This document shows, piece by piece, positions 6,812 to 62,812 of a DNA stretch of 64,000 bases. The DNA comes from a virus. The translations under genes were made by a program, and so were the position numbers. The notes under the pieces were generated by a model. The model had not been told where the DNA came from and ran no database searches. It worked only from the letters and a program-made list of their open reading frames with translations. The stretch's first letter is position 1. Each line of letters begins with the position of its first letter. Location: the IMG/VR virus record IMGVR_UViG_3300031521_000015; one strand, written 5' to 3'.

Positions 6812-6918
6812 AAGGGATAGTTTAGTCTGATCAACTAAATGATAAAGGAGTATCAATCGCCCTTCCCTACTATATTTAGGATTGATAACAAATTAAAATA
6901 CATATTGAAAGGATTGAT
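6812..6918 (+). ncRNA. Structured leader RNA, copy 1
   Basis: P1 AGGGA/TCCCT; P2 loop TGATCA; P3 loop ATCAATC complementary to GATTGAT at 6880 and 6912. Confidence 0.7.
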
Positions 6919-8333
6919 TGTTAATGGAAGAAAAGAAAATTAAACAAGAAAAATTTAAAAAGGTGTTTTTAGATGATTTACCACATGGAGGTAAAGGTGT
7001 TAAAAATTCAAGTATAAATTGGTTGGAATCTAAAAATTATAAAGTAAGATTCATTTATAACAATGTTGAAGGTTGGGTAGAAATTACAGAAGTTAAAAGA
7101 GAAAATGGAAAAACTATGTTAGGTATAAAATATTTAGATAATGATATATTTTATATATTTACAGGTCACTTTCAACAATGTAAATTAAAAGAATTACTTG
7201 GACTAATAAACCATGATTACGTATATAAAGTTAATGAAATAATAAAAGACGAAAAAAGAAATCTATTAATATTAGAACAATTTTATATAAACGGATATAG
7301 ATATTATAAATATGAATGTTTGAATTGTAGATATATTGGTACTATAGCTGAAAGTCATTTAAAAGAAGGAAAAAATTGTTCAATTTGCTCACATCAAAAA
7401 GTTCAAAAAGAAATTAATTCAATATGGGCAACTGATAATGAATTAGTTAAATATTTTGTTAATGAAGAAGAAAGTTATAAATATCCACATTATAGTGAAC
7501 AATCTATTAAAGTAAAATGTCCTGATTGTGGGTCTATACGAAAAATATCAATAATATCTTTATATATAAATGGATTCACTTGTCCAAAGTGTGGTGATGG
7601 AATTTCTATGCCTAATAAAATGATGTTTAACGTATTAGAACAATTATTAGAATTAGACAATTTCAAAAGAGAATATTCACCAGAATGGATAGGCAGAAGA
7701 TTATATGATTTTTACTTCATATATAATGAAAAAGAATATATAATTGAAATGGATGGTGGTTTAGGTCATGGTAATATGGTATATAATGAAAATAATATGA
7801 CTTCAGAAGAATCCTTAGAAATTGATGACTACAAAGATAAAATGGCTGTTGAACATGGAATGCAAAAACCTATTCGAATTGATTGTAATCCCAGCAAATT
7901 TGATTATATAAAAAATAATATATTAATGGATGATAGACTAAATAAACTATTTGATTTGTCTAAAATTGATTGGAATAATGTTTTTCAATATACTTTAACA
8001 AATCAAATGAAAGAAGCTTGTGATTTATGGAATGATGGTAAAAATGTTAAAGAAATAAGTAATGTTTTTAAAATTAGTACAGGTGCGATTCGTAGATATT
8101 TGAATGATGGAAATAAGTTAAATTTGTGTCATTATAATGGATCTGAAAATAGTAAGAATAGTAATATAAGAAATGTAATATGTATAGAATATAATTTGAT
8201 GTTCAATTCCATAACAGAATGTGTAGAACAATTATCAAAAATGTTAAATTTAAAATTCAATATATGTAATATATCAGAGGTATGTAAAGGTAATAGAAAA
8301 ACTCATAATAAATTACACTTTGAATTTGCATAA
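6918..8333 (+). CDS. Zinc-ribbon + PD-(D/E)xK-like (YDFY..IIEMDG) + NUMOD1-like free-standing endonuclease
   Basis: Multiple CxxC; YDFYF..IIEMDGGLGH; C-terminal ISEVCKGNRKTH; paralogous to 46764, 53932 and 62821. Confidence 0.75.
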   Translation: MLMEEKKIKQEKFKKVFLDDLPHGGKGVKNSSINWLESKNYKVRFIYNNVEGWVEITEVKRENGKTMLGIKYLDNDIFYIFTGHFQQCKLKELLGLINHDYVYKVNEIIKDEKRNLLILEQFYINGYRYYKYECLNCRYIGTIAESHLKEGKNCSICSHQKVQKEINSIWATDNELVKYFVNEEESYKYPHYSEQSIKVKCPDCGSIRKISIISLYINGFTCPKCGDGISMPNKMMFNVLEQLLELDNFKREYSPEWIGRRLYDFYFIYNEKEYIIEMDGGLGHGNMVYNENNMTSEESLEIDDYKDKMAVEHGMQKPIRIDCNPSKFDYIKNNILMDDRLNKLFDLSKIDWNNVFQYTLTNQMKEACDLWNDGKNVKEISNVFKISTGAIRRYLNDGNKLNLCHYNGSENSKNSNIRNVICIEYNLMFNSITECVEQLSKMLNLKFNICNISEVCKGNRKTHNKLHFEFA

Positions 8334-8340
8334 ATTTTTA

Positions 8341-8371
8341 AAGCTTAGATTAATTTCTAGGCTTATTTTTT
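8341..8371 (+). terminator. Intrinsic terminator
   Basis: AAGCTTAGA/TCTAGGCTT stem followed by T-tract. Confidence 0.65.
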
Positions 8372-8439
8372 AATTGAAAACAAAAAAGCACCTACAATTA
8401 AAAAATGTAAGTGCTTGGACTGTTATTATTTATATTTGT

Positions 8440-9522
8440 TTAACTCCAAAAATCTGCATTCATCATATCTCGTAATTTTTGTTTTGTTGCAACTGGCTCT
8501 TCCTTGTTTGTATCTTTAGATGTGGTATTATTACTTTTATTTTTACTACCATTTTCTCTAAATTCAAATACTTTTTCTTCATCTTCTAATTCTTCGTCTT
8601 TCATATTATCATAAGCTTCTTGAAGAGTTTGTATATATTCATCTGGACTTGTTACCCCACCAAGTACCATTAAATTCTTACTGCCATAATCGGTCTTTCC
8701 CCACATTTTAGCTTTAAATAATTCTTTCCATTCATCTTTATCATATATACCCTTTTCAAATATACCTCCCATATAAGAACAATCTAAATTATTAGGCATT
8801 ACAAAAGGAGAATTATCCATACTATAATCTACTGCATCTACTAATGATTTGAATTTATCAGCCAATGGTAATATTACTTTATATTTGTTTGCTGAATTAA
8901 TCATTTTAGTATCATTAATATCTACTGCCCCTTCTTGTAATTCATATGAATCTAAAATTAATTTCATACATAGTTTGTTAAATTCGTCTTCATTTTGCAT
9001 TTTGTCATTGTCTATATATTGATAAGAATTGACTACCCCTTGAACTCTTAATTTTGTAATTTTTGAATGTAATTTAAGTGCATTTCCTATTGTTGTCTTT
9101 CCTTCTGACAATGCTGGCATAGCAACAACTAAATTAATTGCTAATTTTGAATTTAAATGCCTTAATACGTTAGTTAATGTTGTAAGTGAACCACCTCCAA
9201 ATCCGCCACCACTAGCTAGATATATTGACGCAACATCATAATTATCTGTTTTATTAGCAAGGAAATTTATAAATTTACTTCTATCTTTTGATATGCTTTC
9301 TTGTGCTACATCTTGATTCCTTCCTGTACCACCACCATTTATTGCCAAGCCATTAATAGTTGAATTATAGTGTTTTAATCTCTTCATTTCATTTATGTTA
9401 GAGTTCACAAATACACCATCGTATACCGATTGTAATACGTTTTCTGAATTATCTAATAAATCCATGAAAGTATCTAATAGTTTATTACCTGTACCACCTG
9501 TCCCAATATTTAGTACGTTCAT
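8440..9522 (-). CDS. tubZ: TubZ tubulin/FtsZ-like partition GTPase
   Basis: IGTGGTGNK, GGGTGRN and SGGGFGGGS tubulin signature; follows a wHTH gene. Confidence 0.9.
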   Translation of the reverse strand: MNVLNIGTGGTGNKLLDTFMDLLDNSENVLQSVYDGVFVNSNINEMKRLKHYNSTINGLAINGGGTGRNQDVAQESISKDRSKFINFLANKTDNYDVASIYLASGGGFGGGSLTTLTNVLRHLNSKLAINLVVAMPALSEGKTTIGNALKLHSKITKLRVQGVVNSYQYIDNDKMQNEDEFNKLCMKLILDSYELQEGAVDINDTKMINSANKYKVILPLADKFKSLVDAVDYSMDNSPFVMPNNLDCSYMGGIFEKGIYDKDEWKELFKAKMWGKTDYGSKNLMVLGGVTSPDEYIQTLQEAYDNMKDEELEDEEKVFEFRENGSKNKSNNTTSKDTNKEEPVATKQKLRDMMNADFWS

Positions 9523-9525
9523 TTC

Positions 9526-9789
9526 TTAACACATCCCCTTTAATTCTAATAATTCTTTCATTCCCTTTTCAGTAACAATATAACTTTTTGCATTTTTAAC
9601 TGATAATCCGTTTTCAATCAATCCTTGGTTGAAAAAATTCAATAATGTATTAGTTACTTTTGTTATACTCATTCCTGTTTTATCCATAATTTCTTTTTTA
9701 GTAGTACCATTTGTTTTTATATTACCTTTGGTTTTATCATTTTCACTTAAAATACTTTGAAGTATTTTAAAATCGTTTTGCGTTATCAT
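9526..9789 (-). CDS. tubR: TubR centromere-binding winged-helix protein
   Basis: 87-aa wHTH (GLIENG..YIVTEKG) immediately upstream of tubZ. Confidence 0.8.
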   Translation of the reverse strand: MITQNDFKILQSILSENDKTKGNIKTNGTTKKEIMDKTGMSITKVTNTLLNFFNQGLIENGLSVKNAKSYIVTEKGMKELLELKGMC

Positions 9790-9905
9790 TATTGTGATTT
9801 CACCTCACTTTTAGATAAGTATAACAAATATATAATTATAAATCAATAGTAATTTTAAAAATATCGTATCTGTATAGTATTTTAATTTTGTAACTGTTTT
9901 AATAT

Positions 9906-9933
9906 ACTATATGTTTAATATACAAATAGTGTT
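9906..9933 (-). promoter_or_regulatory. SigK-like promoter upstream of tubRZ
   Basis: Minus strand AACA-N16-CATATAGT. Confidence 0.5.
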
Positions 9934-10205
9934 ACTATAGTTGTTAAATACTTTATAAATAGTGTAACTATAAAAGTATAGTAGTTTATATATACTATAT
10001 GGATAGTGTATGATTAGTTTATAAATAGTGTGTAAGTAAATCTAAAGTATCTCATTTAGTAAGTAAAGTAAAGTGAAACTTAAAATATCAAAAACTTAAC
10101 TAAATATAAATTATCATAAAAACAAATATAATAATAGTGATTACTTTTTATTACTTTATGGTATACTTATAATATAATTAGAATTCATAAAGGAGTGATT
10201 TAGAT

Positions 10206-10949
10206 TTGGATAACTTTAATGATAATGACAAACATATTGTAGATACTGACTTTATAGAAGTTGACATAGAAGAGAAATTAGAAAATATGAATATAAATAA
10301 AGAACCGTTATATTACACAAGGGTTCAAACAGCTAAAATATTAGGAGAGAATGAAAGTACTATTTCATATTGGAGCAAGCAATTTCAACCATTATTAAAT
10401 TTAAAAATTATTAATATGACTAGGAAATATACAAAAATAGACATAGAAAACTTAATGTTTATTCAAAAATTACTTAGACAGGATCATTTAACTATCCAAC
10501 AAGCACTGGAGTACTGCTCAGAAAAAGGTTTTAATTCAGAATCAGGCTTAGTTGATAGTTCAAATCCATTAGCTGTTCAAACATTTATATCAGCTATGAC
10601 GGTAGAGTTTGATAAAAAGGTATCAGAAATGCAGAATACTATTATTCAGCAACAACGAGAAATGATAGAAAATTTACAGAGTATAATCCTTCAAAATAAT
10701 GAAGAACTCAAGCAAGAAATTTGTTTAACAGTAGATGAGGTGGTCACAGAAAAAATTAATGATTTTGAAAAGAATCTTATAGAAGATCAGTCACAACAAA
10801 TCCAAAATAACTTTAATAACATGAGTAATAAAATCATTAATGAAAATACTAAAATGATGAATGAGTTCAAATGTATCAAATTAGAAGAAATTCAAAAACA
10901 AGAAGAACCAAAAGGATTCTTTAGCAAAATATTCAATTTTAAGAACTAA
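10206..10949 (+). CDS. tubY: TubY-like MerR-HTH/coiled-coil partition regulator
   Basis: MerR HTH (TISYW..RKYTKIDIE), coiled coil, amphipathic tail KGFFSKIF; divergent from tubRZ. Confidence 0.75.
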   Translation: MDNFNDNDKHIVDTDFIEVDIEEKLENMNINKEPLYYTRVQTAKILGENESTISYWSKQFQPLLNLKIINMTRKYTKIDIENLMFIQKLLRQDHLTIQQALEYCSEKGFNSESGLVDSSNPLAVQTFISAMTVEFDKKVSEMQNTIIQQQREMIENLQSIILQNNEELKQEICLTVDEVVTEKINDFEKNLIEDQSQQIQNNFNNMSNKIINENTKMMNEFKCIKLEEIQKQEEPKGFFSKIFNFKN

Positions 10950-11115
10950 TAACTCAACATAAACATTAAATATAATATTAATGTCGAATATGGTATTAAT
11001 TTCTAACCATCAGACAGGTCGTAAGAATGGAGATAGGATTAAAAGAGTATTAGTTGTTGTCTTAAAATTTTAAGTCTCAGATTTGACGAGAAGGGCAATA
11101 TAAGCGATATCTAAT

Positions 11116-11469
11116 AAACAGGACTAATGTAGGACGAAAAATTCAATATTAACTCTTTACATTGCAATATTGTGATTAAAACTATTAATAATTATAGTTT
11201 CGTACTATATCCGTCCTTTTTATCTACCCCAAAAAGCCTTTTTACGTACACCTAGAGTAGCTTTCATGTACTATATCCGTCCTTTTTATAAATATAGAAC
11301 CGTTGATATCACTTAATTAGAAGTGTATGGTAATATAGAATAATTAAAGTTGTTGTAAAGCAACAACAAATATATTTATTAATAGTGGCTTAAAAAGGAT
11401 TGATTTAGTAGATAAAAAGGACTAATATAGGACGTGACAACAATAAAAGGGACTGATGTAGGACGAAAA
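11116..11469. repeat. Iteron cluster / replication origin
   Basis: Six ~23-bp copies of AAAAGGACKRATRTAGKACGAAA at ~11116, 11392, 11414, 11445 (+) and 11198, 11265 (-), upstream of rep. Confidence 0.8.
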
Positions 11470-11489
11470 TATATTGAGGTGGGCTATTT

Positions 11490-12659: not shown

Positions 12660-12947
12660 CCCTTACATTAAATTCATTTACTTAAACGCCAAAATACGCC
12701 TCAAATTTAAGACTTGTCCTATCAAAGGTAATAGTTGTTGTCTAAAATTAGAACGTCTTAGAGAGTCGAATAAGGGTAAATAAATCCTATATATAGATAT
12801 ATGAGAATGTAGTAGAAATTATTACATTCTTTTTTTATGTTTTGAATTAAATTGATAATTATATTATTTTAAAACAAATTAATGTATAAATGATTGACAA
12901 ATAACTTCAACAGGTTTAATATGGTAATTGAGGAAGGAGGGGAAAAT

Positions 12948-14406: not shown

Positions 14407-14446
14407 TAGTAAATAATAAAATAATACAAACAAAGGAGATTAAAAA

Positions 14447-33092: not shown

Positions 33093-33198
33093 TAGAAACT
33101 AGATAAGGAGTTATAAACCGTATCGAAAAGGAGTATCCGAACTCCCTGTTTCTATTTTTATAAATTTCGGAAAATAAATTAAAGTACGAATCGGAGGT
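33093..33198 (+). ncRNA. Structured leader RNA, copy 2
   Basis: P1 TAGAAAC/GTTTCTA; P2 loop TTATAA; P3 loop TCCGA complementary to TCGGA at 33167 and 33191 (RBS). Confidence 0.75.
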
Positions 33199-33206
33199 AT
33201 TACATT

Positions 33207-34304
33207 ATGGAAACTAAAACATGTACTAAATGTGGACAAGAGTTCCCAATGTCTAAAGAATATTTTGAACCCAGAAAAGAATCAAAAGATGGATTCAGAA
33301 ATCAATGTAGAGATTGCAGAAATATCAATAGAAGAAATATATATGATGATAAATATAAAAGTGAAGATAATAGAAGATGGCAACAAGAAGAAATAGATAT
33401 ATTGAATAAATATTATGAAATTATGAGTAACAATGAATTACAAGAAAAGTATTTAAACACTAGAACTATTTCTCAAATAATAGATTATGCAAGTAAAAAA
33501 TTAAACTTACATAAACATGATGACGTTAAAATATATTATAGTGATGGTACAACAATGGGGTGGACAAAAGAAGATGATGAATATTTATTAAAAAACTATC
33601 CATCAACAAATTTTAAAGAAATGGAATTAGCTTTAGGAAAAAACAGTTTTACAATAACAGCTAGAGCTATTAAAAAGGGAATACAAAGAGATAATAAGTA
33701 TTCTGAAGAAGAAATAAATATCGTAAAAAAGTATTATGCAGACAATGAAAACAAATGGATTATTGATAATTTTATGAGTAGTAGAAGTAAGACTGAAATA
33801 ATAGGATTAGCAAATCGTTTAGGAATAAATAAAAATGATGAACTGATATTTCAAATAAGAGTTGATACTGGCTTAAAAAATTTAAAATGTATACCTGACC
33901 AAACAGGTTCTAATAGTCCTTGTTGGAAAGGTGGAACAGACGTATTAAGATTATATGTAAGAAACCATATTAGAAAATGGAACAAAGATAGTTTAAAATA
34001 TTATAATAATAAATGTTTTATTAGTGGAGATTCAGAAAATTTGATAATCCATCATGGATACTCTTTTAAAGACATATTGAATGAGACTATAAAAGAATTA
34101 GGACTTACTTATAATAATGATTTATCTAATTATAGTAATGGTGAACTTAGAAATATAATAGATTTATCAAATGAAAAACACTATAAATATGGTTTTGGAA
34201 TCCCTTTAACCAAAGAATTACATTTATTATTTCATAAAACTTATGGTTTTGTAAATTACACAAATGAACAGTTAATAGAATTTAAAAATAATTATGCTAG
34301 TTGA
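33207..34304 (+). CDS. HNH-type endonuclease with zinc finger and Myb-like repeats
   Basis: CTKC..CRDC; W..EE repeats; CFISG..IHH..LHLLFHKTYG. Confidence 0.75.
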   Translation: METKTCTKCGQEFPMSKEYFEPRKESKDGFRNQCRDCRNINRRNIYDDKYKSEDNRRWQQEEIDILNKYYEIMSNNELQEKYLNTRTISQIIDYASKKLNLHKHDDVKIYYSDGTTMGWTKEDDEYLLKNYPSTNFKEMELALGKNSFTITARAIKKGIQRDNKYSEEEINIVKKYYADNENKWIIDNFMSSRSKTEIIGLANRLGINKNDELIFQIRVDTGLKNLKCIPDQTGSNSPCWKGGTDVLRLYVRNHIRKWNKDSLKYYNNKCFISGDSENLIIHHGYSFKDILNETIKELGLTYNNDLSNYSNGELRNIIDLSNEKHYKYGFGIPLTKELHLLFHKTYGFVNYTNEQLIEFKNNYAS

Positions 34305-46537: not shown

Positions 46538-46623
46538 TAAAATTAAAATTAAACAATGAATAAATAGACATCTTTCTAGGTGTCTATCCTTGATTGTTTA
46601 AAAACAAATTATAAATAATCAAT

Positions 46624-46652
46624 TTTACAATAATACCTAAATATGGTATTAT
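46624..46652 (+). promoter_or_regulatory. SigA promoter of endonuclease cassette 3
   Basis: TTTACA-N17-TATTAT with extended TG. Confidence 0.7.
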
Positions 46653-46756
46653 TGTAATGTAGGATAAATAAGGAAGTCATGAGCCTTATTGAAAAGGAGT
46701 ATTCCGAACTCCCTTCCTATATTACATATAAATCGGAAAATAAATTCAACGGAGGA
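46653..46756 (+). ncRNA. Structured leader RNA, copy 3
   Basis: 12-bp P1; P2 loop TCATGA; P3 loop TTCCGA complementary to TCGGAA (46733) and CGGA of the RBS (46750). Confidence 0.75.
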
Positions 46757-46763
46757 ATTAGTG

Positions 46764-48293
46764 ATGGAAGAAAGGGAATATCAACAAATTATTGAACAAT
46801 GGGAACTAGAACATAATGAATTAATTGAAAGTGGAACGTGTAGAAAGATATTTTTAGATGTATTACCTAAATCAAATCACAATGGTGGAAGTATAGATTG
46901 GAAAAATAGCAACGACTATAAAGTATATTTTATAGATAAAAATGTTGCAGGTTATGTAATGATAATAAATTATAGAAGTATTGGACAAGAACTACAAATA
47001 TCTTATCTACAAGATATATATAAAATAAATACAGGAGATTTTACACAATGTAAATTAGGGAATATAGTTGGTACAAAAACAAGTAATTTTAAATATAAAA
47101 TTGGGCAAATAATAAAAGATAATAAAAGAGATATAACAATAACCGATTATAAAAATGAAAAAGGAAAAAGTAAACTTTATAAATACAAATGCAATACGTG
47201 TGGATTTGATTGTGGAGAACATTATTCAATAAGAGATAAGGAATATAAAGATGAATTTTGGATACCAGAACATAATCTACTTAGTCGAGATACAGGTTGT
47301 GCTTGTTGTAATAGTACAATTATAGTAAAAGATATAAATAGCATATCTAAAACAAATCCAGAAATGGCGAAGTTCTTTTTAAATATTGAAGATACTTATA
47401 TTCATAGTGAATGTAGCAATAGAAAAGTATATGTAAAATGTAAAGAATGTGGGAAAATAAAGAAGAAAAAAGTTTCTGTAAATTCTTTTGTTTCAAATGA
47501 AAGTATTGGTTGTGAATATTGTGGCGATGGGAAAAGTTACGCTGAAAAATTCATGTTTAATATTTTAACTCAATTAAATATAGAATTTATTCCAGAGTAT
47601 TCTCCGGATTGGATAGGCAAAAGAAGATATGATTTTTACATTCCATCAATGAATTTAATTATAGAGATGGATGGTGGTTGGCATGAAAATGACAACAAAA
47701 TGAGTGGACAAAGTTCTAAGGAGTCAAAAGCAATTGATGATTATAAAGAAGAAATGGCTATGTTACATGGAATAAAGAAACCAATTAGGATTAATTGTTA
47801 TTTTAGAATTAGAAAATATGAAAATATAAAGAATAATATACTAAATAGCGATTTAAATTATTATTTTGATTTAAATAAAGTTGATTTTAAGAAAGCTGAT
47901 GAACAATCTCATAAGCCAATAGTAAAAGAAGCTTGTGAATTATGGAATAGTGGGATTAGAAGTACAGGGGAAATAGGTAAGATTTTAAAAATATCAAGTT
48001 CATGTGCACTTAGTTATTTGAAGAAAGGTAAAAATCTCGATTGGTGCGATTATACTGTAGAAGATAGTGAAAAATTCAAAATAGAACATATTAGAAAAGT
48101 CACAAAAAACAATTGTAAACCAGTTGAAATATTTAAAGATAATATAAGTCAAGGAATATTTCCATCAGCACAAGAATTAGATGAAAAAAGTGAAGAATTA
48201 TTTGGAGCAAAGCTAAACTTTTGTAAAATATCAGCAGTATGCCGAGGTAAAAAGCCACAATATAAAGGATATACTTTTAAATTTGTAGCCTAA
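46764..48293 (+). CDS. Zinc-ribbon + PD-(D/E)xK-like + NUMOD1-like endonuclease
   Basis: RRYDFY..IIEMDGG.H; GGAGG RBS puts the start at 46761/46764, not 46689. Confidence 0.75.
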   Translation: MEEREYQQIIEQWELEHNELIESGTCRKIFLDVLPKSNHNGGSIDWKNSNDYKVYFIDKNVAGYVMIINYRSIGQELQISYLQDIYKINTGDFTQCKLGNIVGTKTSNFKYKIGQIIKDNKRDITITDYKNEKGKSKLYKYKCNTCGFDCGEHYSIRDKEYKDEFWIPEHNLLSRDTGCACCNSTIIVKDINSISKTNPEMAKFFLNIEDTYIHSECSNRKVYVKCKECGKIKKKKVSVNSFVSNESIGCEYCGDGKSYAEKFMFNILTQLNIEFIPEYSPDWIGKRRYDFYIPSMNLIIEMDGGWHENDNKMSGQSSKESKAIDDYKEEMAMLHGIKKPIRINCYFRIRKYENIKNNILNSDLNYYFDLNKVDFKKADEQSHKPIVKEACELWNSGIRSTGEIGKILKISSSCALSYLKKGKNLDWCDYTVEDSEKFKIEHIRKVTKNNCKPVEIFKDNISQGIFPSAQELDEKSEELFGAKLNFCKISAVCRGKKPQYKGYTFKFVA

Positions 48294-53525: not shown

Positions 53526-53809
53526 TTAAAAAACACCTCCTTTTAAGTATTTTGCCATAAAAACACTTATTAATAATTTATATGGTAAAATACTTAAAAG
53601 AATTAGGTAGAACATTATTAGGGGACACAAGACTAATATTATATAGTTCAAAATTTATAGTTTTAATAAAATGTAAATCCCTTTATTTATATTTTAACTT
53701 TCTCTATACAATACAGTGATTATATTATACCATAAATGTATAAAAATGGATATGAAATTGAAAATAAAATTGATTATAATTTGCTCGTAAGAGTGTTATA
53801 ATATATAGT

Positions 53810-53923
53810 AGGAAGAAATAAATATAATAAGTAGTCGACGATTTGTTATATTGAATGGGTTAGCTCCAATTAACCTTTCTTCCTTTTTTATTTAATATTG
53901 GAGAAATAAATTATATTGGAGGA
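53810..53923 (+). ncRNA. Structured leader RNA, copy 4
   Basis: P1 AGGAAGAA/TTCTTCCT; P2 loop GTCGAC; P3 loop CTCCAAT complementary to ATTGGAG at 53897 and 53915. Confidence 0.75.
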
Positions 53924-53931
53924 ATTTAAGA

Positions 53932-55551
53932 ATGGAAGGAAATAGACAATTAAATCAAGAAGAATATATGGAGATTATTGAAAAATTTAAGGAAAATAAT
54001 AGAGAAGATTATGAGAGTGGTAAATGTAAAAAGATATTTTTGGAATGTTTGCCTAGATGGGGAAAAGGTGGAAAAGCAAAAGAAGGTAGTATAAATTGGA
54101 TTGAATCAGTGAATAAAAATTATTATATATTTTTTATATATGGTGTTCATGAGGATTATATAAGATTAATAGATTATTCATATGATAAACAATTAAAAAT
54201 AACAATTGAATATTATGGTGAAAACTTAAGTTTAAATGCAGGGAGCATTAATAATTGTCAAATAGGCAAACTATTCAATATAAGGAATAAAGAATATTTA
54301 TATAATAGAGGTGATATTGTCAAAGGAAAGCATTCAAATTTATTGATATTAGAACAATTAATTATTAAATCAAACTATAGTTATAAAGTTAAAGGATATA
54401 AATATAAATGTTTGTCATGTGGAGATATAGATGAAATTTCTCAAAGAGATATTCTACGTGGAGTAGGTTGTGAAATTTGTTGTCCAAATTCTCAAAAAGT
54501 CGTAAAAGAGATAAATTCTATATGGAAAACGAACCTAGAACTAGTTAAATACTTTGTAAACGAAGAAGATACTTGGAAATACACAATTGGTAGCCATAAA
54601 AAAGTGTGGTTTAAGTGTTTGGACTGTTATTATAGAAAAGAAATGACTATTGATAATTTTGTAAGGAACGGATTTTCATGTAATAAATGTGGGGATGGTA
54701 TTTCAGTGCCAAATAAAATAATGTTTAATGTGTTAGAACAACTAAATGTTCAATTTGAAGCAGAAAAGAAAGTAGAATGGTGTAAATTTTTATATAAAAA
54801 TAAACGAAGACAAGGTTATTATGATTTCTATTTTGAGCAAGATGGCAAAAAATACATTATAGAAATGGATGGGGGTCTAGGTCATGGTAAGGGGAATTTT
54901 AAGAATAATATGACTGCTAAAGAATCACAATTTATTGATGATGAAAAAGATAGATTAGCTATTGAACATGGAATTGAAGTAATTAGAGTTGACTGTGACC
55001 ATCGTATGTACTATGGATTTGATTATATAAAAAATAATATATTATCTAATGTTAATATAAATAATTTGTTTTTATTAGCCAATATTGATTGGAGTAAGGT
55101 TTTGAAATTTGTTTCGTCAAGTAGAATCAAAGAAGCTTGTGATTTATGGAATATCGGTATTCATAGTACAACTGAAATTTCCAAAATTATGAAGATGAGC
55201 AGAACAACAATTTGCACGTATTTAAAAATAGGATTTGAACTGAAAATAACAGATTATACTGTGGAAATTTCAAAAAATATTAATAATAATAATACTATAG
55301 AAAGAAATAAACAAAAGTTAAGTACTAAAATAATTTGTATAGAAAATGGTATTATATTTAATTCCATTTCTGAATGTGAATTAAATAGTTTTAAAATATT
55401 TGGAATAAAAATGTTTAATAGTGCTATAACTAAAGTATGTCAAGGGAAACAGCAACATCATCAAGGATATCAATTTAGATACTTAAAAGACCTTACCGAA
55501 GAACAAATAAAAGAAATTCAAGAAAATGCAAAATTAAATCAAGCAATATAA
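53932..55551 (+). CDS. Zinc-ribbon + PD-(D/E)xK-like + NUMOD1-like endonuclease
   Basis: YYDFYF..IIEMDGGLGH; paralogue of 6918. Confidence 0.75.
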   Translation: MEGNRQLNQEEYMEIIEKFKENNREDYESGKCKKIFLECLPRWGKGGKAKEGSINWIESVNKNYYIFFIYGVHEDYIRLIDYSYDKQLKITIEYYGENLSLNAGSINNCQIGKLFNIRNKEYLYNRGDIVKGKHSNLLILEQLIIKSNYSYKVKGYKYKCLSCGDIDEISQRDILRGVGCEICCPNSQKVVKEINSIWKTNLELVKYFVNEEDTWKYTIGSHKKVWFKCLDCYYRKEMTIDNFVRNGFSCNKCGDGISVPNKIMFNVLEQLNVQFEAEKKVEWCKFLYKNKRRQGYYDFYFEQDGKKYIIEMDGGLGHGKGNFKNNMTAKESQFIDDEKDRLAIEHGIEVIRVDCDHRMYYGFDYIKNNILSNVNINNLFLLANIDWSKVLKFVSSSRIKEACDLWNIGIHSTTEISKIMKMSRTTICTYLKIGFELKITDYTVEISKNINNNNTIERNKQKLSTKIICIENGIIFNSISECELNSFKIFGIKMFNSAITKVCQGKQQHHQGYQFRYLKDLTEEQIKEIQENAKLNQAI

Positions 55552-56291: not shown

Positions 56292-56828
56292 ATGGGAAAT
56301 TTATTAGAAAAACATCAAAAAAATGCGTATAGATATAAAAATAAAGACCTCATTTTGTATCATCCAAGTGACGAACAATACGAGGAAATCAAACAATTGG
56401 TAAAAGATAGTATACAAATAGATAAAGAGATGAACATAAGTGGAGAATTACAATTTAAAAGTGTAAGGTTTATAATAAGGGAAATTACTTCAATTGGACA
56501 CTCCATAGATGAATACGGTGACAATGAAGTTCAAGAAAAATTAGATAATGGTGATAGAACACTAGTTTTATTATATAGAGAAATTGAAACATTCATTACT
56601 GAAATAGTAGATGATATATTCTATGATTATACACAACAAATTAAATTAATGGATAACTTATTAAATATAACAAATAGTAACGATAATTTAGAGAGAATGA
56701 AAGTAAAAATGAATAAATTCTTTAAGAAATATAAAATTAATATGCAATTTGAAGATTTTATGAAAATAGCAAATGACCCAAATGCGATACGGGAATTGAC
56801 CAAAAAATTAAATATAAAAACCAAGTAA
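56292..56828 (+). CDS. Tail assembly chaperone (putative)
   Basis: Directly precedes tape measure gene. Confidence 0.5.
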   Translation: MGNLLEKHQKNAYRYKNKDLILYHPSDEQYEEIKQLVKDSIQIDKEMNISGELQFKSVRFIIREITSIGHSIDEYGDNEVQEKLDNGDRTLVLLYREIETFITEIVDDIFYDYTQQIKLMDNLLNITNSNDNLERMKVKMNKFFKKYKINMQFEDFMKIANDPNAIRELTKKLNIKTK

Positions 56829-56891
56829 AGAAGTGCCAAATAATCGGTACTTCTTTTATTTTTGTGTAAATGAAAGGAGATAAGATTATAA

Positions 56892-59800
56892 ATGGCATAT
56901 CAAAATTCAATTAGTTTAGGGATAAAATTACAACCCACTAGTGAGATACAAACTGAATTAAAAACTGCAATAGAACAATTAAATAAAAATTCAAGTATAG
57001 ATTTAAAAATAGATACAACACAGGTCAATAAATCATTAAAGGAATTTAGTAATACATTAGATAATATTAATAATAAATTAAAGAATGGATTTAATTTTCA
57101 AGGGGTTTTTAATAATCAAGCAATTGGTGTAGAAGTAGTAACAAATAAATTAAAAGAAGAACAAAAAGCAATTGAACAAACTGAAAATGCTATGAAAACT
57201 TTATCTAGTACTAAAATGGGCAATTCTGATTCTAATGGTAATATAACAGAAACATTAAAAACTGTCGAACAATTGCAAATTGGTATTGGTAATACAACTA
57301 AATTAACTACTGATTTAGCAACTGGTTTAAAAACTGCTAGTAATACAGAAAATTTTCAAAAATTAGAAAATATAATTGATAATTTACAAAGCAAATTAAG
57401 TAAGTCTAGTAATAATAAATTTATAAATGAATCAGTAATTACTGAATTACAAAATCGATTAAATTCAATAAATACAAATTCTGCCGACAAAGAATTTAAA
57501 GAATTACAAACTACTATTAACAACTTAGGCAGTTCAGATAGCCAAATAGTTCGTTTGCAAAATACAATAAGTAAAATGGAATCTAGCCTTACTTCTATGA
57601 AAAGCAAGTATGGAAGTTTAGTAGGTGATAGTAGTTCAAAATCTTCACTAGATGCTTATATATCTGAAATAGAAAAGTTAAAAACATTAATGGCTAGTTT
57701 GCAAAATGGAGGCACTATTAGTGGAAGTAAGTTAGCCTCTGAATTAAATCAAGGAACTGAAGCGAGCAGAAATCTATCTAATTCGGTAAAAAATAGTAGT
57801 AATGCATTAAAATTAGCGACTACAGATAGTGAAACGTTTGGACAATCAATTAAACGTGCATTAAGCAATACTGGACTTTACCTTGGAACTTATCAAGCAG
57901 TTCAAATGTTATCTAATTCTTTTAGAGACGCTATCACTTATGTAGTTCAATTAGATAGTGCAATGACAAATTTAAAAAAAGTAACTCAAGAAACAAATCA
58001 AACATATTCAAGTTTTTTAAATCAAGCACATGATATTGCTATGGAATATGGTTCTCAGGCTGATAAAGTTGTTGATGCAACTACTTCTTGGGCAAAAACA
58101 GGAGAATCTTTAAAAAATGCTACAGAATTAGCTAAAAACACTATGCTATTAACAAAAGTTGGTGATATTGATAGTGTCGCAATGGCTCAACAATATATGA
58201 TTGCCCCACTAAAAGCATTTCAGATAGAAGCAAGTAAAAGTATAACATTAATTGATAAATATAATAATATTTCTAATAATATGGCTACAAGCACTACAGA
58301 TTTAGGCGAGGCCCTTTCAAAATCTGCAAGTAGCATGTCTACTGCTGGAAATACCTTAGACCAAACATTGGCTATAATATCAACTGCTGAATCACAAACA
58401 AAATTAGGTGGAGATGTTGTGGGTCAAGCCCTAAAATCTGTCTCCCTTAGAATAGCATCATTTAAAGATGAGAATGGAGAATTAATACCTAAATTTGAGA
58501 AACAGTTAAGTGCTTTAGGTGTTACTATGAGAGATACCACAACTGGACAAATACTACCAACTTTTGACATATTACAACAAGTTGGAGAAAAATTCAAAAC
58601 AATGAATACAAACGATAAATTAAATGTAAGTGAACTTTTAGGTGGTAAATTACAGGCAAATGTAATTAGTTCCGTATTGAATAATGTAGATGAATTGAAT
58701 AGAGCGTATAGTTTAGCACAAAATAGTTCAAATAGTGCGATGAATGAATTTAAAACCTATCAACAAGGAGTACAATATAGTATTGACCAATTGAAAGAAT
58801 CTATTTCAAATATGTATAAAGAATCAATGAACTCATCTAGTTTAAAATCGTTTGTAGACTCTTTAACAATAATGGTTAGCACATTTGGAAATTTAAAAAC
58901 GGTAATAGCAGTTGCAACTACGGCTTTTTTATTATTTAAAGGGCAAGCTATTACAAGTGCAATTGCCAGTTTAGGTTCGTATATATCAACTTTATTTTCA
59001 GTAGTGAAAGCAGAAGGTGCATTAACTGTTGCGACAGCAGAATTAGATATAGCTCTATCTACTAATCCTTTTGGATTAATTGCAATGGCTATTACAGGAG
59101 TTATTGTTGTTATGGACGCTTTAACAACTTCCCAAAATAACTTAAAACAATCTAATGCAGAATACGTACAATCACTACAAACTAGTAATCCAAACCAAGG
59201 ACAAGAATTATTAAATAATTATAAAAAATTAGAGTCTGAGCTATCAACATTAAAACAAGGTACACAAGAATATAAAACTAAAGAAGAAGAATTAGCAACT
59301 GCACAACAATCGTTAATAAGTTTATATCCTCAAGCTTCTTCGGCAATAGATGAAAATACAGGTAAAAAGAAATTAAATGCAGATGCGACACAAAAGTTAA
59401 TTGACAAAGATAAAGAATTAGCACAGGCAAAAGCAATTGAAACATTGAGCAATAACAAAGTTGGCAATACTGACGATGTAGCAAAGATGGTTGAAGCGTA
59501 TAAAAAAGCACAGGAAGAAATGAAAAGATTGACTGAGGATTATAATAATGGAGTAACAAGTCAAGAAGTAATTTCAATAGGAGCTAACGGACCTCATAAG
59601 AGTTCTGTTAGTACAGATAGTCAATTAAAAGATACAACCAAAGAATATGAAGATTATAAACAAAAAATATTAGCAGTTCAGTCTGCATTGAGTTCTCTAG
59701 ATAGTAAGAACACAAAATTTGCAGGTTCTTTAGATGAAGTAAATAATGCAATGGGAAATAGTTCAGAAAAAACTGATGATAACACTAAGGTTATAAATGA

Positions 59801-62627
59801 TAATACTCAAGCAAAAAATGATAATACAAATGCAGATAATGGTGCAAATACTCAAGCAAATGCAATAACAAAAGCAACAAAGGCTTATTCAGAATCAACT
59901 CAGGCAATAGCACAAGCACAATCTTATCTCGATAAACTTAATAAATCACAAGCAGTAACGCCTGCTTTAGTTAAACAAATGAGCAAAGCATATGGTACAG
60001 ATGTTACAGAAAGTTTAAATAGTGCTTCCACGGCACAAGAATATTTAACTGGCAAGATAAAAGAACAACAAACTGCACAACAGGATGCTTATTTAATAAT
60101 GAAACAGGACGACGAACAATTTTACCAAGACAAAATTAAAAACAATGAAGGATATGAAAATCAAATAAACTCATTTTTAAATAGTTTTGTTTCTGATAGT
60201 AATGGTGCATACAATGTTGACTTGTCCAATTATACTACATTAAACGGGCTCAAGAGTGGTGCTATGGGGGAATTGAGCATTGCTGTAGATAGTTGGATGA
60301 GTAAGTATGTAGATGTCACTGCGTCTGGATATAATGTAGATTATAATAATTTCACAAATTTGATTTCAGCAAAGTCAGAAATATTAAAACAATTTGCAGG
60401 ATCTATGGCTCAATTTTGGGACGATACTAGTCAAGCGTTTACTGAAGGTGCTTATGGTGGAATAGATTTATCTGGTGGAGCAAATAATGAACAATATGAA
60501 GATTTTACAAAAAAGGCTTCGGGAATATTAGCTACAGGAGATAAAATTAGAAGTGCTTATAAAGATTTGGATAAAATATATGCAGGTGGTGGACTGAATC
60601 TTGATAAATTTGGTGGAGGCATGGGAAATTCTGACTTCAGTGGTACGGGTAGCCCAAATAAAGGTTCGTCTGGGAAATCAGATGCCGAAAAAGAAGCCGA
60701 AAAAGCACAAAAATTAGCAGAAGAAATATCAAAATTAAAAAGTGAAATAGAACCTGACAGGTATCTAGATTTCAATAATGCAGTAAAACAAGCAGATAAT
60801 GAATTATCTTTAAATAAAACATTATTAGATTCATTAAAAGAAGGTAGCCCAGAATACCAACAAGCAGAGTTAAAAAATATAGAGATATATAAACAAAAAC
60901 AAACTGCTTTAAAAAGTTTAAATGATGAACAAAAAAAAGATGCAGAAGAGAAAAAAACAAAATTGGCTAATCTTGGCTTTGAGTTTGACGCCAATGGCAA
61001 ATTAATAAACAGCCAACAAAAATTATTATCTTTACAAGAACAAGTAAATTCAATGGGTGGTAATACAGAAGCTGATAAGCAAGCAAAAGAAGATGCAATA
61101 AAAAATCTTAAAGATATTAATGATGAAACTAAAAAATATATAGAGTTAGTCGGAGATAAAATTCCTAAAACTACTGCTGAATGGCAAGAGCAAGCTAATG
61201 AAATTTCTAAAGTTAACGAACAAATTAAGAAAGCCAACATAGATATTCTTAATAATGCGAAAGAAGAATTAGCACAAGATATTCTAAAAGACGCACAAGA
61301 AAAAGTTGATGAATTAAAAAAACAAGCAGATGAATCAAGAGAAGATGCAAAGCAATCGTTAGAAGATGAAAAGACAAGTAAATTAGCACTTTGGGACGAA
61401 AAGATTAAATCTAAACAAGCTGAATTAGATGCTATGAATGATGAAACGTCTGATAATGAAACTAAACTCAAGAAACTTAAAGTAGAGTTGGCTAACTTAC
61501 AAAGAGATAATTCTACAGAAGCACAAGGAAGAATACAAGATGTAAATACCCAGATTACCGATTTACAAAAAACTATTAAAAAAGATGCATTATCCAAAGA
61601 AATTGATAGTTTAAATAATCAAAAGCAAATTCAGAGCGATAATTACGATCAGCAACTAAGCGATTTAGAAAAAGCAAATAAAGAACAAGAAGCAGAAGAT
61701 GAAAAACATTATTCGGAGTTATTAAATGAGAAGAATGCCTATAATAAAGCTGAAAAAATGATTAATAAAAATCAACAAAGCGATATGTATGATTTATACT
61801 CAAAATATAGCGAAGATTATAAAAAGATGGGTGTAGATTTATCAACAAGCGTTGACGCTTCTTTGAAAAAAATAACTGAAGCTATTAGTAATTTAAACAA
61901 TGTTAAAATTAGAAACAATAATTCTAGTGATGGTGGAAACGGTGATGGTGAGTCATCATCAAACCATTATGAAAATACAACTAGTAGTGGAACGCATTAT
62001 ACTGATATAGGTTCTGGAATAATATCAGATCATCCATTAACCAATGATGAGATAAACACTATAAATAAAGGGTCAAGTGGTAGTTCTAGTTCAAGTAAAC
62101 CATCTACAACTGTTACTAATAGCAATGGTTCTACAACTACTACTCATAGTGATGGAACTAAAAGTTATAGTAACGGAGATTATACAGATTCCAATGGATA
62201 TTATCATACAGCTGGATATGATACAGGTGGAAGAACTCCAAGTAATATTGATTCTAATGGTAAAATAGGTATATTACATGCAAGTGAAAAGATATTAAAC
62301 GCCAAAGATACTGTTCAATTTGATAGTTCTATGTTGAAAATTGATGAAATTTATAATTCCCTTAAAGAGTCGGGGGCTTTACTTGGTCAGTTATCACAAT
62401 CATATTCTAATATTGGCAATTTAGCTATGCCAACACTAGGTATTGATTTGAATAAAATAGCAAATAGTGTTGTTAATAATAGCAATGCTGATAATAGTAG
62501 TTCTAGTAATATAAATATAAATAATAATTATCAAGTCGACGCTACTTCTGATTTTAATACAAAAAACTTTAGTAATAATCTAGATAAACAGTTAAAACAA
62601 ACATTGAGAAAATACGGAAAAATATAA
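56892..62627 (+). CDS. Tail tape measure protein
   Basis: 1911 aa, TP901-type core (LDSAMTNLKKV..GQALKSVSLRI), coiled coils, GYDTGG..LHASEKIL tail. Confidence 0.9.
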   Translation: MAYQNSISLGIKLQPTSEIQTELKTAIEQLNKNSSIDLKIDTTQVNKSLKEFSNTLDNINNKLKNGFNFQGVFNNQAIGVEVVTNKLKEEQKAIEQTENAMKTLSSTKMGNSDSNGNITETLKTVEQLQIGIGNTTKLTTDLATGLKTASNTENFQKLENIIDNLQSKLSKSSNNKFINESVITELQNRLNSINTNSADKEFKELQTTINNLGSSDSQIVRLQNTISKMESSLTSMKSKYGSLVGDSSSKSSLDAYISEIEKLKTLMASLQNGGTISGSKLASELNQGTEASRNLSNSVKNSSNALKLATTDSETFGQSIKRALSNTGLYLGTYQAVQMLSNSFRDAITYVVQLDSAMTNLKKVTQETNQTYSSFLNQAHDIAMEYGSQADKVVDATTSWAKTGESLKNATELAKNTMLLTKVGDIDSVAMAQQYMIAPLKAFQIEASKSITLIDKYNNISNNMATSTTDLGEALSKSASSMSTAGNTLDQTLAIISTAESQTKLGGDVVGQALKSVSLRIASFKDENGELIPKFEKQLSALGVTMRDTTTGQILPTFDILQQVGEKFKTMNTNDKLNVSELLGGKLQANVISSVLNNVDELNRAYSLAQNSSNSAMNEFKTYQQGVQYSIDQLKESISNMYKESMNSSSLKSFVDSLTIMVSTFGNLKTVIAVATTAFLLFKGQAITSAIASLGSYISTLFSVVKAEGALTVATAELDIALSTNPFGLIAMAITGVIVVMDALTTSQNNLKQSNAEYVQSLQTSNPNQGQELLNNYKKLESELSTLKQGTQEYKTKEEELATAQQSLISLYPQASSAIDENTGKKKLNADATQKLIDKDKELAQAKAIETLSNNKVGNTDDVAKMVEAYKKAQEEMKRLTEDYNNGVTSQEVISIGANGPHKSSVSTDSQLKDTTKEYEDYKQKILAVQSALSSLDSKNTKFAGSLDEVNNAMGNSSEKTDDNTKVINDNTQAKNDNTNADNGANTQANAITKATKAYSESTQAIAQAQSYLDKLNKSQAVTPALVKQMSKAYGTDVTESLNSASTAQEYLTGKIKEQQTAQQDAYLIMKQDDEQFYQDKIKNNEGYENQINSFLNSFVSDSNGAYNVDLSNYTTLNGLKSGAMGELSIAVDSWMSKYVDVTASGYNVDYNNFTNLISAKSEILKQFAGSMAQFWDDTSQAFTEGAYGGIDLSGGANNEQYEDFTKKASGILATGDKIRSAYKDLDKIYAGGGLNLDKFGGGMGNSDFSGTGSPNKGSSGKSDAEKEAEKAQKLAEEISKLKSEIEPDRYLDFNNAVKQADNELSLNKTLLDSLKEGSPEYQQAELKNIEIYKQKQTALKSLNDEQKKDAEEKKTKLANLGFEFDANGKLINSQQKLLSLQEQVNSMGGNTEADKQAKEDAIKNLKDINDETKKYIELVGDKIPKTTAEWQEQANEISKVNEQIKKANIDILNNAKEELAQDILKDAQEKVDELKKQADESREDAKQSLEDEKTSKLALWDEKIKSKQAELDAMNDETSDNETKLKKLKVELANLQRDNSTEAQGRIQDVNTQITDLQKTIKKDALSKEIDSLNNQKQIQSDNYDQQLSDLEKANKEQEAEDEKHYSELLNEKNAYNKAEKMINKNQQSDMYDLYSKYSEDYKKMGVDLSTSVDASLKKITEAISNLNNVKIRNNNSSDGGNGDGESSSNHYENTTSSGTHYTDIGSGIISDHPLTNDEINTINKGSSGSSSSSKPSTTVTNSNGSTTTTHSDGTKSYSNGDYTDSNGYYHTAGYDTGGRTPSNIDSNGKIGILHASEKILNAKDTVQFDSSMLKIDEIYNSLKESGALLGQLSQSYSNIGNLAMPTLGIDLNKIANSVVNNSNADNSSSSNININNNYQVDATSDFNTKNFSNNLDKQLKQTLRKYGKI

Positions 62628-62707
62628 AGAAATTTATTAAAACAATTATCTTATTTGTAATTTATTAGTTATAATTACTCTTAAAGTATGTTATAATATA
62701 TAGATAT

Positions 62708-62812
62708 GGAAGGATAGATTGAAAAGTCGCGAGTTCAATTGATAAGCTCTCTCCAATGAGTTTCCTTTCCTTTTATACATATTGGAGCAATAAATTAAAT
62801 TATATTGGAGGA
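62708..62812 (+). ncRNA. Structured leader RNA, copy 5
   Basis: P1 GGAAGGA/TCCTTTCC; P2 loop TCGCGA; P3 loop CTCCAAT complementary to ATTGGAG at 62781 and 62804; TG-TATAAT at 62689-62697. Confidence 0.75.

What the first reader, a model, noticed from the sequence alone, without database searches (positions are those of the whole stretch)
6821..62740. Every copy of the leader RNA carries a different 6-nt palindrome in its P2 loop
Seen: TGATCA (6828), TTATAA (33111), TCATGA (46677), GTCGAC (53834), TCGCGA (62727). Sequence varies but self-complementarity is kept in 5 of 5, mostly flanked by purines. Known: the retroviral DIS uses such loops for kissing homodimers. Inference: each RNA homodimerises only with itself, giving cassette-specific concentration or copy-number sensing that could flip the RBS switch.
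Basis: partly seen in the sequence, partly recalled or inferred. Interest (0 to 1): 0.8.

Follow-up and report, generated by a model that had tools for sequence, protein, structure and literature searches.

The report
Self-pairing tip loops in phage leaders
The folded RNA leaders in front of this Clostridium-type phage's selfish nuclease genes each carry a hairpin tip whose six central letters differ from copy to copy but stay self-complementary, which most likely lets two leader RNAs pair tip to tip as HIV genomes do; the same kind of tip turns up in other, unrelated bacterial RNAs.

Summary
All five hexamers sit where stated, each in the apical loop of hairpin P2 of a covarying three-way-junction leader in front of a homing-endonuclease gene.

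It is not chance. Across about 30 homologous leaders there are 22 distinct P2 loops. Fourteen hold a Watson-Crick 6-nt palindrome (1.5 expected, P~1e-13), four more pair through G·U only, two keep a 4-nt palindrome and two have none. Ten different hexamers occur.

The hexamer always sits 1-3 nt from the 5' stem and 0-1 nt from the 3' stem. It is therefore off the stem's symmetry axis and is not part of one DNA palindrome.

The same design recurs in a second leader type for these genes, and in a ~230-nt Elusimicrobiota RNA with more than 40 copies per genome.

Best reading (0.55): a DIS-like kissing loop that pairs RNAs carrying the same hexamer.

Not supported: "every copy different" is no more than sampling from a diverse pool (P=0.37). 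One related phage uses UCAUGA in two cassettes, and AU-only hexamers should pair weakly. Concentration sensing and any link to the RBS switch are untested.

One copy (c2) scores just under the Rfam int-alpA cut-off. This scan found the same phenomenon earlier in other phage genomes.

The parts
6812..6926 (+). Leader c1, from P1 to the ATG at 6924, in front of a phrog_4538 homing-endonuclease-like gene
   Evidence: CM R1 20.5 bits, R2 63 bits
6820..6840 (+). c1 P2 hairpin GUUUAGU[CUGAUCA]ACUAAAU; palindrome UGAUCA at 6828-6833
   Evidence: this is the only TGATCA in the window
33093..33209 (+). Leader c2, in front of a zinc-finger nuclease-like gene (ATG at 33207)
   Evidence: RF02996 int-alpA 34.4 bits against cut-off 35.8
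33103..33123 (+). c2 P2 hairpin AUAAGG[AGUUAUAAA]CCGUAU; palindrome UUAUAA at 33111-33116; 9-nt loop of the form AR-N6-A
46659..46766 (+). Leader c3, in front of a phrog_4538/HNH-like gene (ATG at 46764)
   Evidence: sigma-70-like promoter at 46624-46652
46668..46689 (+). c3 P2 hairpin AUAAGG[AAGUCAUGAG]CCUUAU; palindrome UCAUGA at 46677-46682
   Evidence: the same loop occurs in L069, L072, L091, L331, L359 and six Clostridia genomes
53809..53934 (+). Leader c4, in front of a phrog_4538/HNH-like gene (ATG at 53932)
   Evidence: the three-way junction is the MFE fold
53822..53851 (+). c4 P2 hairpin (11-bp stem) with loop A-GUCGAC-G; palindrome at 53834-53839
62706..62823 (+). Leader c5, in front of a phrog_4538 gene (ATG at 62821; the ORF runs off the window)
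62718..62739 (+). c5 P2 hairpin AUUGAA[AAGUCGCGAG]UUCAAU; palindrome UCGCGA at 62727-62732
   Evidence: this is the only CGCG in the window; homologue L007 keeps the loop with a compensatory stem change
53864..53921 (+). Context in c4: P3 loop CUCCAAU (53864-53870), a decoy AUUGGAG (53897-53903) and the RBS AUUGGAGG (53915-53922). The same three-part complementarity occurs in c1 (6852 / 6880 / 6912), c2 (33136 / 33167 / 33191), c3 (46703 / 46733 / 46750) and c5 (62751 / 62781 / 62804)

Best explanation
The P2 apical loop is a DIS-like kissing loop. Its six-letter self-complementary core is held open by 1-3 unpaired nucleotides on the 5' side and 0-1 on the 3' side. It pairs with the identical loop of a second leader RNA. 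The P2 stems are weak, so this contact could mature into an extended duplex. By default the partner is another transcript of the same cassette, but any RNA with the same hexamer qualifies. The hexamers therefore define compatibility groups rather than one private address per cassette. Dimer formation rises with the square of transcript concentration, so it would make the stability or translation of the nuclease mRNA dose-dependent, with the mRNA acting as its own antisense RNA. Shown here: selection for self-complementarity, its fixed position in the loop, and its recurrence in other RNAs. Inferred: that pairing is intermolecular and RNA-RNA. Guessed: the direction of the effect. I favour dampening at high dose, by analogy with antisense copy-number control, and any coupling to the choice of the P3 loop between decoy and RBS.
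For: (1) Retention. Fourteen of 22 distinct P2 loops hold a Watson-Crick hexamer palindrome against 1.46 expected (P=8e-14), and 18 of 22 do if G·U is allowed against 4.5 expected. The background rate in window hairpin loops is 7.7%.
(2) Covariation. Ten different hexamers occur, and each of the three symmetric position pairs takes 2-4 Watson-Crick pair types. UCAUGA, UCGCGA and UGAUCA, for example, differ by double changes.
(3) An intramolecular cause is excluded. A 6-nt palindrome cannot fold on itself, because the middle pair would leave no loop.
(4) The hexamer is not part of one DNA palindrome. In 17 of 17 loops it lies 1-3 nt from the 5' stem and 0-1 nt from the 3' stem, so its axis is offset from the stem's axis (chance product 1e-5). 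The review of RNA dimers describes the HIV-1 DIS as a six-nucleotide palindrome in an apical loop flanked by conserved purines that are needed for dimerisation (PMC7357161).
(5) Departures from perfect palindromy mostly keep RNA pairing. UAAUUG, UAGCUG, UUGUGA and UAGUUA are G·U-compatible, and only CGUACA (L009) is not.
(6) The loop sequence is conserved while the stems covary. CUGAUCA sits on three different stems, AAGUCAUGAG on four or more, and GUUCGAAA on three. P1, P2 and P3 covary strongly: 90% of cells are paired and 0 of 500 shuffles reach that.
(7) The loop is not an operator for the gene's own protein. The same loop precedes phrog_4538, treble-clef zinc-finger and T5orf172 proteins, and the leader serves GIY-YIG, NUMOD/I-HmuI and HNH-type genes.
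(8) The hexamers persist against genome-wide avoidance. The only CGCG and the only TGATCA in 64 kb are in the c5 and c1 loops, and GATC occurs 46 times against about 130 expected.
(9) There is independent recurrence. In a second leader architecture for these genes, six of seven distinct hairpins are palindromic right through the tetraloop, and a conserved GUAGCUAC follows. In a ~230-nt Elusimicrobiota repeat RNA, 15 of 23 distinct apex loops hold a hexamer palindrome against 2.0 expected, with the same flank geometry.
(10) Pairing is calculated to be selective. Homoduplexes give -5 to -8 kcal/mol for c1, c3, c4 and c5, while every cross-pair is -2 or weaker.
Against: UUAUAA (c2) and UAAUUA give only about -0.5 kcal/mol as bare duplexes, yet AU-only hexamers are the commonest type in the Elusimicrobiota RNA, which could favour recognition by a symmetric protein instead. 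Exceptions exist among clear homologues: pentaloop UCGCU (L048, L627), AUAGG (L482), UAGCU on three stems (only AGCU is palindromic) and CCGUACA. Individual loop sequences, flanks included, are conserved across distant phages, so specific sequence may matter as well as symmetry. The leaders do not fold better than shuffled sequence (z from -1.3 to +0.8), and P2 alone is marginal (0 to -5.5 kcal/mol). Many loops share descent, so the P values overstate independence. Alignment A7 was fitted to the model.
Confidence: 0.55

Rival explanations
1. The hexamer is the binding site of a two-fold symmetric protein, either a dimeric RNA-binding protein on the loop or a dimeric DNA-binding protein or enzyme on the duplex DNA. 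The symmetry would then reflect the protein and not RNA-RNA pairing.
For: Individual loop sequences are conserved with their flanks. AU-only hexamers, which pair weakly, are common. The type-2 leaders carry perfect 8-12-nt palindromes that look like operators. I-TevI is known to autorepress through an operator near its own promoter (PMC2988022).
Against: At least ten different hexamers occur, five or six of them within one phage, which would need as many specificities. The same loop precedes unrelated proteins. The module occurs in Clostridia phages, Campylobacterota and Elusimicrobiota, which share no obvious specific factor. The hexamer's axis is offset from the stem's axis. Four loops are symmetric only through G·U, which means nothing in DNA. 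Known homing endonucleases of these classes bind asymmetric sites as monomers (established knowledge).
Confidence: 0.2
2. The palindromy is a by-product and has no function of its own. It could come from hairpin-templated mutation (quasi-palindrome correction) extending the inverted repeat into the loop, or from shared descent from one palindromic ancestor plus chance in AT-rich sequence.
For: TTATAA and TAATTA are common in this genome (136 and 94 copies). Shuffles of such loops give a palindrome 18% of the time. Many loops are related by descent. The type-2 hairpins are perfect palindromes without unpaired flanks, as template switching would produce.
Against: Template switching would produce a palindrome continuous and coaxial with the stem, whereas type-1 loops keep asymmetric unpaired flanks. 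Ten hexamers differ by paired changes. GC-containing hexamers survive in a genome that purges such words. The excess holds after each loop is shuffled within its own composition (P=8e-14). The pattern recurs independently in the Elusimicrobiota RNA.
Confidence: 0.07
3. The loop pairs with a different RNA, not with itself. The partner would be either a leader of another cassette (a network of heterodimers) or a cis-encoded antisense transcript. The palindromy would then only ensure that sense and antisense loops are identical.
For: Loops beginning YUNR or UNR (CUGA, CUAG, UUAG) resemble the U-turn loops of antisense RNA systems (established knowledge: Franch et al. 1999). Two cassettes in G003 share UCAUGA. 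Dozens of Elusimicrobiota copies share UAAUUA.
Against: An antisense partner would match any loop, so it does not explain palindromy. Cross-pairs between the window's own hexamers are calculated to be weak. No antisense promoter was sought or seen.
Confidence: 0.1

Closest known systems
HIV-1 dimerisation initiation site (DIS) and the oskar 3'UTR dimerisation loop
   Same: An apical hairpin loop with a 6-nt self-complementary core and unpaired flanking nucleotides. The c2 loop AG-UUAUAA-A has the 9-nt AR-N6-A format. Different natural variants keep the symmetry. The element lies in a 5' leader that also governs translation (PMC7357161).
   Different: This is a DNA phage mRNA, not a packaged genome. 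Hexamers here are often AU-rich, whereas those of DIS and oskar are GC-rich. Loop length ranges from 7 to 10 nt. There are several orthogonal hexamers per genome. Dimerisation has not been shown.
int-alpA RNA motif (Rfam RF02996; Weinberg et al. 2017, PMC5737381), an orphan motif
   Same: The same three-way junction and joining sequences: P1-CUAG-P2-CGAAAAG-P3 (loop with CCUU)-CCUG-P1', then a U-rich tract and AAGG. Copy c2 aligns end to end at 34.4 bits, and a related phage has a 32.4-bit match.
   Different: No copy reaches the cut-off of 35.8 bits, and c3 and c5 do not match at all. P2 is much longer here (6-11 bp with a 7-10-nt loop against 4 bp with about 5 nt). The genes are homing endonucleases rather than integrase or alpA. 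Self-complementary P2 loops are not part of the published description as far as I could find.
RBS-sequestering leader hairpins of T-even homing-endonuclease genes (I-TevI, I-TevII, I-TevIII, segB, mobE)
   Same: An RNA structure in the leader of a selfish nuclease gene that can pair with the ribosome-binding site and so limit translation (PMC2988022).
   Different: Those are simple hairpins that a late promoter placed inside them relieves. Here a three-way junction has a loop that matches both a decoy and the RBS, plus a separate self-complementary loop.
Antisense-RNA kissing control of plasmid copy number (ColE1 RNA I/RNA II, R1 CopA/CopT); from established knowledge
   Same: Loop-loop contact whose rate depends on RNA concentration gives dose control. 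The 7-nt loops here (CUGAUCA, CUAGCUA) fit the YUNR pattern.
   Different: There the two partners are separate complementary transcripts. Here a palindrome would make one transcript its own partner.

Membership tests
DIS-type palindromic kissing loop | A 6-nt self-complementary sequence in the apical loop of a hairpin | tested here: met
   Five of five in the window; 14 of 22 distinct homologous loops by Watson-Crick pairing and 18 of 22 with G·U
DIS-type palindromic kissing loop | Conserved unpaired flanking purines (two on the 5' side, one on the 3' side) | tested here: inconclusive
   The geometry is kept: 5' flank of 1-3 nt and 3' flank of 0-1 nt in 17 of 17 loops. Flanks are purines in four of five window copies, but pyrimidines occur elsewhere (C-UGAUCA, GC-UUGCAA-U, and CC-/AC- in the Elusimicrobiota RNA)
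DIS-type palindromic kissing loop | Palindrome-dependent dimer formation, restored by compensatory changes | not testable with these tools
   Only natural compensatory variation (ten hexamers) and duplex energies are available
int-alpA RNA (RF02996) | Score at or above Rfam's gathering cut-off (35.8 bits) | tested here: not met
   No match in the window at gathering; c2 scores 34.4 bits; c3 and c5 have no match at E<=10
int-alpA RNA (RF02996) | Three-way junction with the joining sequences CUAG / CGAAAAG / CCUG and a pyrimidine-rich P3 loop | tested here: met
   The c2 alignment covers model positions 1-71. The other copies keep UAG/UAA, UGAWAAG and an anti-RBS P3 loop
int-alpA RNA (RF02996) | Association with integrase or alpA genes | tested here: not met
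   The downstream genes are homing-endonuclease types
T-even type RBS-sequestering leader of homing-endonuclease genes | Leader sequence complementary to the gene's own RBS | tested here: met
   The P3 loop is complementary to the RBS region in every copy and covaries with it
T-even type RBS-sequestering leader of homing-endonuclease genes | Relief by a late promoter located inside the inhibitory structure | tested here: not met
   The promoter-like -10/-35 elements lie upstream of P1, so the whole structure is transcribed

The most novel reading that the evidence does not exclude
A portable 'bacterial DIS'. A hairpin whose loop holds a self-complementary hexamer in a fixed asymmetric register would be a general self-pairing module that needs no protein. 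Several unrelated RNAs would have adopted it: two architectures of phage nuclease-gene leaders, relatives of int-alpA, Campylobacterota hairpins, and an Elusimicrobiota RNA with more than 40 copies per genome. It would let an RNA act as its own antisense, giving dose-dependent control with orthogonal 'channels' set by the hexamer.
Probability: 0.25. Interest if true: 0.9.

Novelty: new variant of a known kind. Interest (0 to 1): 0.72.

Why it matters
Functional RNA homodimers are rarely documented outside retroviruses and a few eukaryotic mRNAs (PMC7357161). Here comparative data alone show selection for a self-complementary loop in bacterial-virus mRNAs, in a format close to the HIV-1 DIS, with ten natural 'compensatory' variants ready to test.

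If the loops do pair, selfish nuclease genes would measure their own transcript dose without any protein. That would be a new regulatory principle for mobile elements and a source of small orthogonal RNA-RNA connectors. It would also give a first functional clue for the orphan int-alpA motif and for a very abundant, undescribed Elusimicrobiota RNA.

Tried and rejected
- **Rfam:** nothing reached gathering in the window.
- **Weak rli59 (RF01484) resemblance of L091:** 20 bits against a cut-off of 100. Not pursued.
- **No whole genome is held for the window**.
- **Metagenome scan for CTCCAAT...ATTGGAG...ATTGGAGG:** Nearly all hits were false, with two true leaders.
- **Viral scan for ATCAATCG...GATTGATAA:** no true leader found.
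- **Search for real int-alpA members, to test palindromy in that family:** the consensus BLAST against phages and RF02996 over 150 Clostridia genomes found none.
- **Promoter scan:** uninformative in this AT-rich DNA (129 sites found, 126 expected).
- **Single-sequence folding:** no better than shuffles. The structure rests on covariation.
- **Idea that each loop is an operator for its own protein:** rejected, because the same loop precedes different protein families.
- **Idea that the c3 loop pairs with its own start codon region:** seen in the MFE fold, but rejected as a general explanation because other hexamers have no such partner.
- **'Every copy different' as a selected property:** not significant.
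- **Weak CM hits left out as doubtful:** L046/L086, L077 and L486.

Full report
**What is there**

The window is 26.6% G+C and comes from a large tailed phage. It encodes a portal, a terminase and a 1911-aa tape measure protein. The portal is 54% identical to that of Clostridium phages c-st and D-1873, and 38% identical to those of SPbeta-like Bacillus phages.

The five reported sites are exact. Each lies about 15-25 nt into a leader of 108-126 nt. The leader follows -35/-10-like elements and precedes a free-standing homing-endonuclease-type gene. Four of these genes belong to phrog_4538, with HNH, treble-clef and NUMOD-like signals. The c2 gene encodes a different zinc-finger protein.

**The RNA**

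By eye, and then by covariance models, the leader is a three-way junction with these parts in order:
- P1.
- P2, a hairpin with the palindromic loop.
- A joining sequence UGAWAAG.
- P3, whose loop is complementary both to a 'decoy' just 3' of P1 and to the real RBS.

Model R1 was built from c4, c5 and four viral-contig homologues. It recovered c2 and c3 at E~1e-5 and c1 weakly.

R2 searches of 52 viral records found matches in about two dozen of them. Together with pattern hits they gave about 30 leaders. On the 28-sequence alignment all 20 base pairs of P1, P2 and P3 show changes on both sides. 90% of cells are paired against 58% in shuffles (0 of 500) and about 50% when partners are slid. 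The alignment is model-fitted, so these figures lean towards the structure.

Single sequences do not fold better than shuffles. The case for the structure is therefore comparative.

**Is the palindrome more than chance?**

In this AT-rich DNA, 7.7% of generic hairpin loops of 7-10 nt contain a 6-nt palindrome.

Among 22 distinct P2 loops:
- 14 contain a Watson-Crick hexamer palindrome. Shuffling each loop within its own composition predicts 1.46 (P=8e-14).
- Four more are self-complementary through G·U (UAAUUG, UAGCUG, UUGUGA, UAGUUA).
- Two keep only a 4-nt palindrome (UAGCU on three stems, and CCGUACA).
- Two have none (UCGCU, AUAGG).

Ten hexamers occur: UCAUGA, UCGCGA, UGAUCA, GUCGAC, UUAUAA, UAAUUA, UUCGAA, UAGCUA, UUGCAA and AAGCUU. 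Each of the three symmetric position pairs takes several pair types. This amounts to covariation across a pairing that cannot be intramolecular.

The loops are conserved while their stems change by compensatory substitutions. For example, c5 has AUUGAA/UUCAAU and L007 has GUUGAA/UUCAAC with an identical loop. CUGAUCA sits on three different stems.

**RNA level or DNA level?**

Four points favour RNA.
1. The hexamer always sits 1-3 nt from the 5' stem and 0-1 nt from the 3' stem (17 of 17 loops, chance product 1e-5). Its axis is therefore displaced from the stem's axis, and the whole is not one inverted repeat, operator or cruciform. Asymmetric, mostly purine flanks are also what the HIV-1 DIS has, and there they are required for dimerisation (PMC7357161).
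2. Six of the seven imperfect position pairs in loops of 7 nt or more, counting the type-2 hairpin ACUGUGCAGU, are G·U. That preserves RNA pairing only. The count is small and post hoc.
3. The same loop (AAG-UCAUGA-G) precedes phrog_4538, treble-clef and T5orf172 proteins. The leader also serves GIY-YIG and NUMOD/I-HmuI genes. The loop is therefore not an operator for its own product, unlike the I-TevI precedent (PMC2988022).
4. The genome purges such words, yet keeps its only CGCG and its only TGATCA in these loops.

**Recurrence elsewhere**

This is the strongest new evidence.

(a) Homologous nuclease genes in other viral contigs carry a second leader architecture. It reads GGAG, then a perfect 8-12-nt palindrome, then a conserved GUAGCUAC, then a CCUCC/GGAGG hairpin. 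In six of seven distinct versions the palindrome runs through the tetraloop (UGCA, UAUA, ACGU, GAUC, CUAG), which a simple hairpin does not require.

(b) I scanned species-representative genomes for the 18-nt top of c3's P2 and got 50 hits. About 17 would be expected by chance, and a similar number lie in coding DNA. The remaining hits fall into three groups:
- True leaders in Clostridia genomes (Gudongella, Anaerovirgula, Acetobacterium, Eubacterium, Clostridium, Cand. Colivicinus), probably prophages.
- Three Campylobacterota hairpins.
- A structured Elusimicrobiota repeat of about 230 nt, with 23-43 matches in each of three ~1.5-Mb genomes and fewer in two others, and no Rfam match.

In 98 copies of that repeat the apex loop varies. 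Fifteen of 23 distinct loops again hold a hexamer palindrome (2.0 expected) in the same register: XX-UAAUUA-X, AC-UUAUAA, AAG-UCAUGA-G, AA-UUGCAA-R, A-CUUAAG and AC-GUAUAC-A.

A module that works in such different hosts and RNAs is more easily explained by an intrinsic RNA property than by a shared protein.

**What does not hold**

- 'Every copy different' is true of the window. Across six genomes, however, there are two within-genome repeats against 2.9 expected (P=0.37).
- G003 has UCAUGA in two cassettes, and the Elusimicrobiota genomes reuse one hexamer many times. The hexamers therefore look like compatibility groups, not private addresses.
- Calculated homoduplexes are -5 to -8 kcal/mol for c1, c3, c4 and c5 and cross-pairs are -2 or weaker. 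UUAUAA and UAAUUA give only about -0.5.
- Nothing here tests dimer formation, dose sensing or coupling to the RBS switch.

**Relation to known families**

- c2 aligns over the whole RF02996 model at 34.4 bits, with a cut-off of 35.8.
- A related phage has a 32.4-bit match.
- c3 and c5 do not match.
- The window has nothing at gathering.

The leaders are therefore an expanded relative of that orphan motif, with a much larger P2. I found no description of self-complementary loops for it. I could not obtain true members to check.

**Verdict**

The kissing-loop reading is the best supported (0.55) but unproven. The 'one address per cassette, concentration sensor' extension is speculative and in part contradicted.

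This scan reached similar conclusions earlier on other phage genomes. New here are:
- the asymmetry and G·U arguments;
- the negative test of distinctness;
- the second leader type;
- the Elusimicrobiota RNA.

Noticed in passing
L490, L499, L506, L511 and about 100 further loci (G053-G057, Elusimicrobiota MAGs): An undescribed structured RNA repeat of about 230 nt. Three ~1.5-Mb genomes give 23-43 matches each (G053 43, G056 40, G054 23); G057 and G055 give 9 and 3. There is no Rfam match. It has a closing helix AACAGC/GGCUGUU, a long hairpin with a palindromic apex, GAAUGUUU, and a GC-rich hairpin with a tetraloop, and it ends in GCCGUUUUU. Genes that often follow begin with a prepilin-type N-terminus (KGFTLIELLVV).
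   Followed up: partly
L001 1440-1500, L006, L010-L012, L361, L363, L367, L368, L373, L378, L381, L382, L404, L411, L415, L455, L464, L475: A second leader type in front of related nuclease genes: GGAG, then a perfect 8-12-nt palindrome (AACUUGCAAGUU is the commonest), then an invariant GUAGCUAC, then a CCUCC-N6-GGAGG hairpin over the RBS.
   Followed up: partly
L489, L498, L516 (Campylobacterota, including Sulfurimonas indica): A terminator-like hairpin capped by the same AAGG-AAGUCAUGAG-CCUU apex, just upstream of small hydrophobic ORFs (for example MNPIFIIILLLLVV).
   Followed up: no
window 1-64000: Strong avoidance of short palindromes: GCGC 0, CGCG 1, GGCC 1, CCGG 3 (about 18 expected from base composition), GATC 46 against about 130, TCGA 47 against 72-144.
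   Followed up: partly
L627 108-176 (G027:78807-78875): A near-threshold int-alpA match (32.4 bits) that my model R2 missed. Its P2 loop is the non-palindromic pentaloop UCGCU, the same as in L048.
   Followed up: partly
L091 81-202 (G003:77287-77408): A weak full-length alignment to Listeria rli59 (RF01484, 20 bits, cut-off 100) with the same helix order and the AAAUAAAU tail. It may be a distant relative or may be chance.
   Followed up: no
L070 and L045 just upstream of the leader; L086 (G001:6213-6333): A repeated hairpin AAGGGAUUUAYCUWAAAGUCCCUU(UCC), terminator-like, directly before some cassettes.
   Followed up: no
window 46564-46587: A terminator-like hairpin ends the preceding gene just before the c3 promoter, so c3 is probably its own transcription unit.
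   Followed up: no
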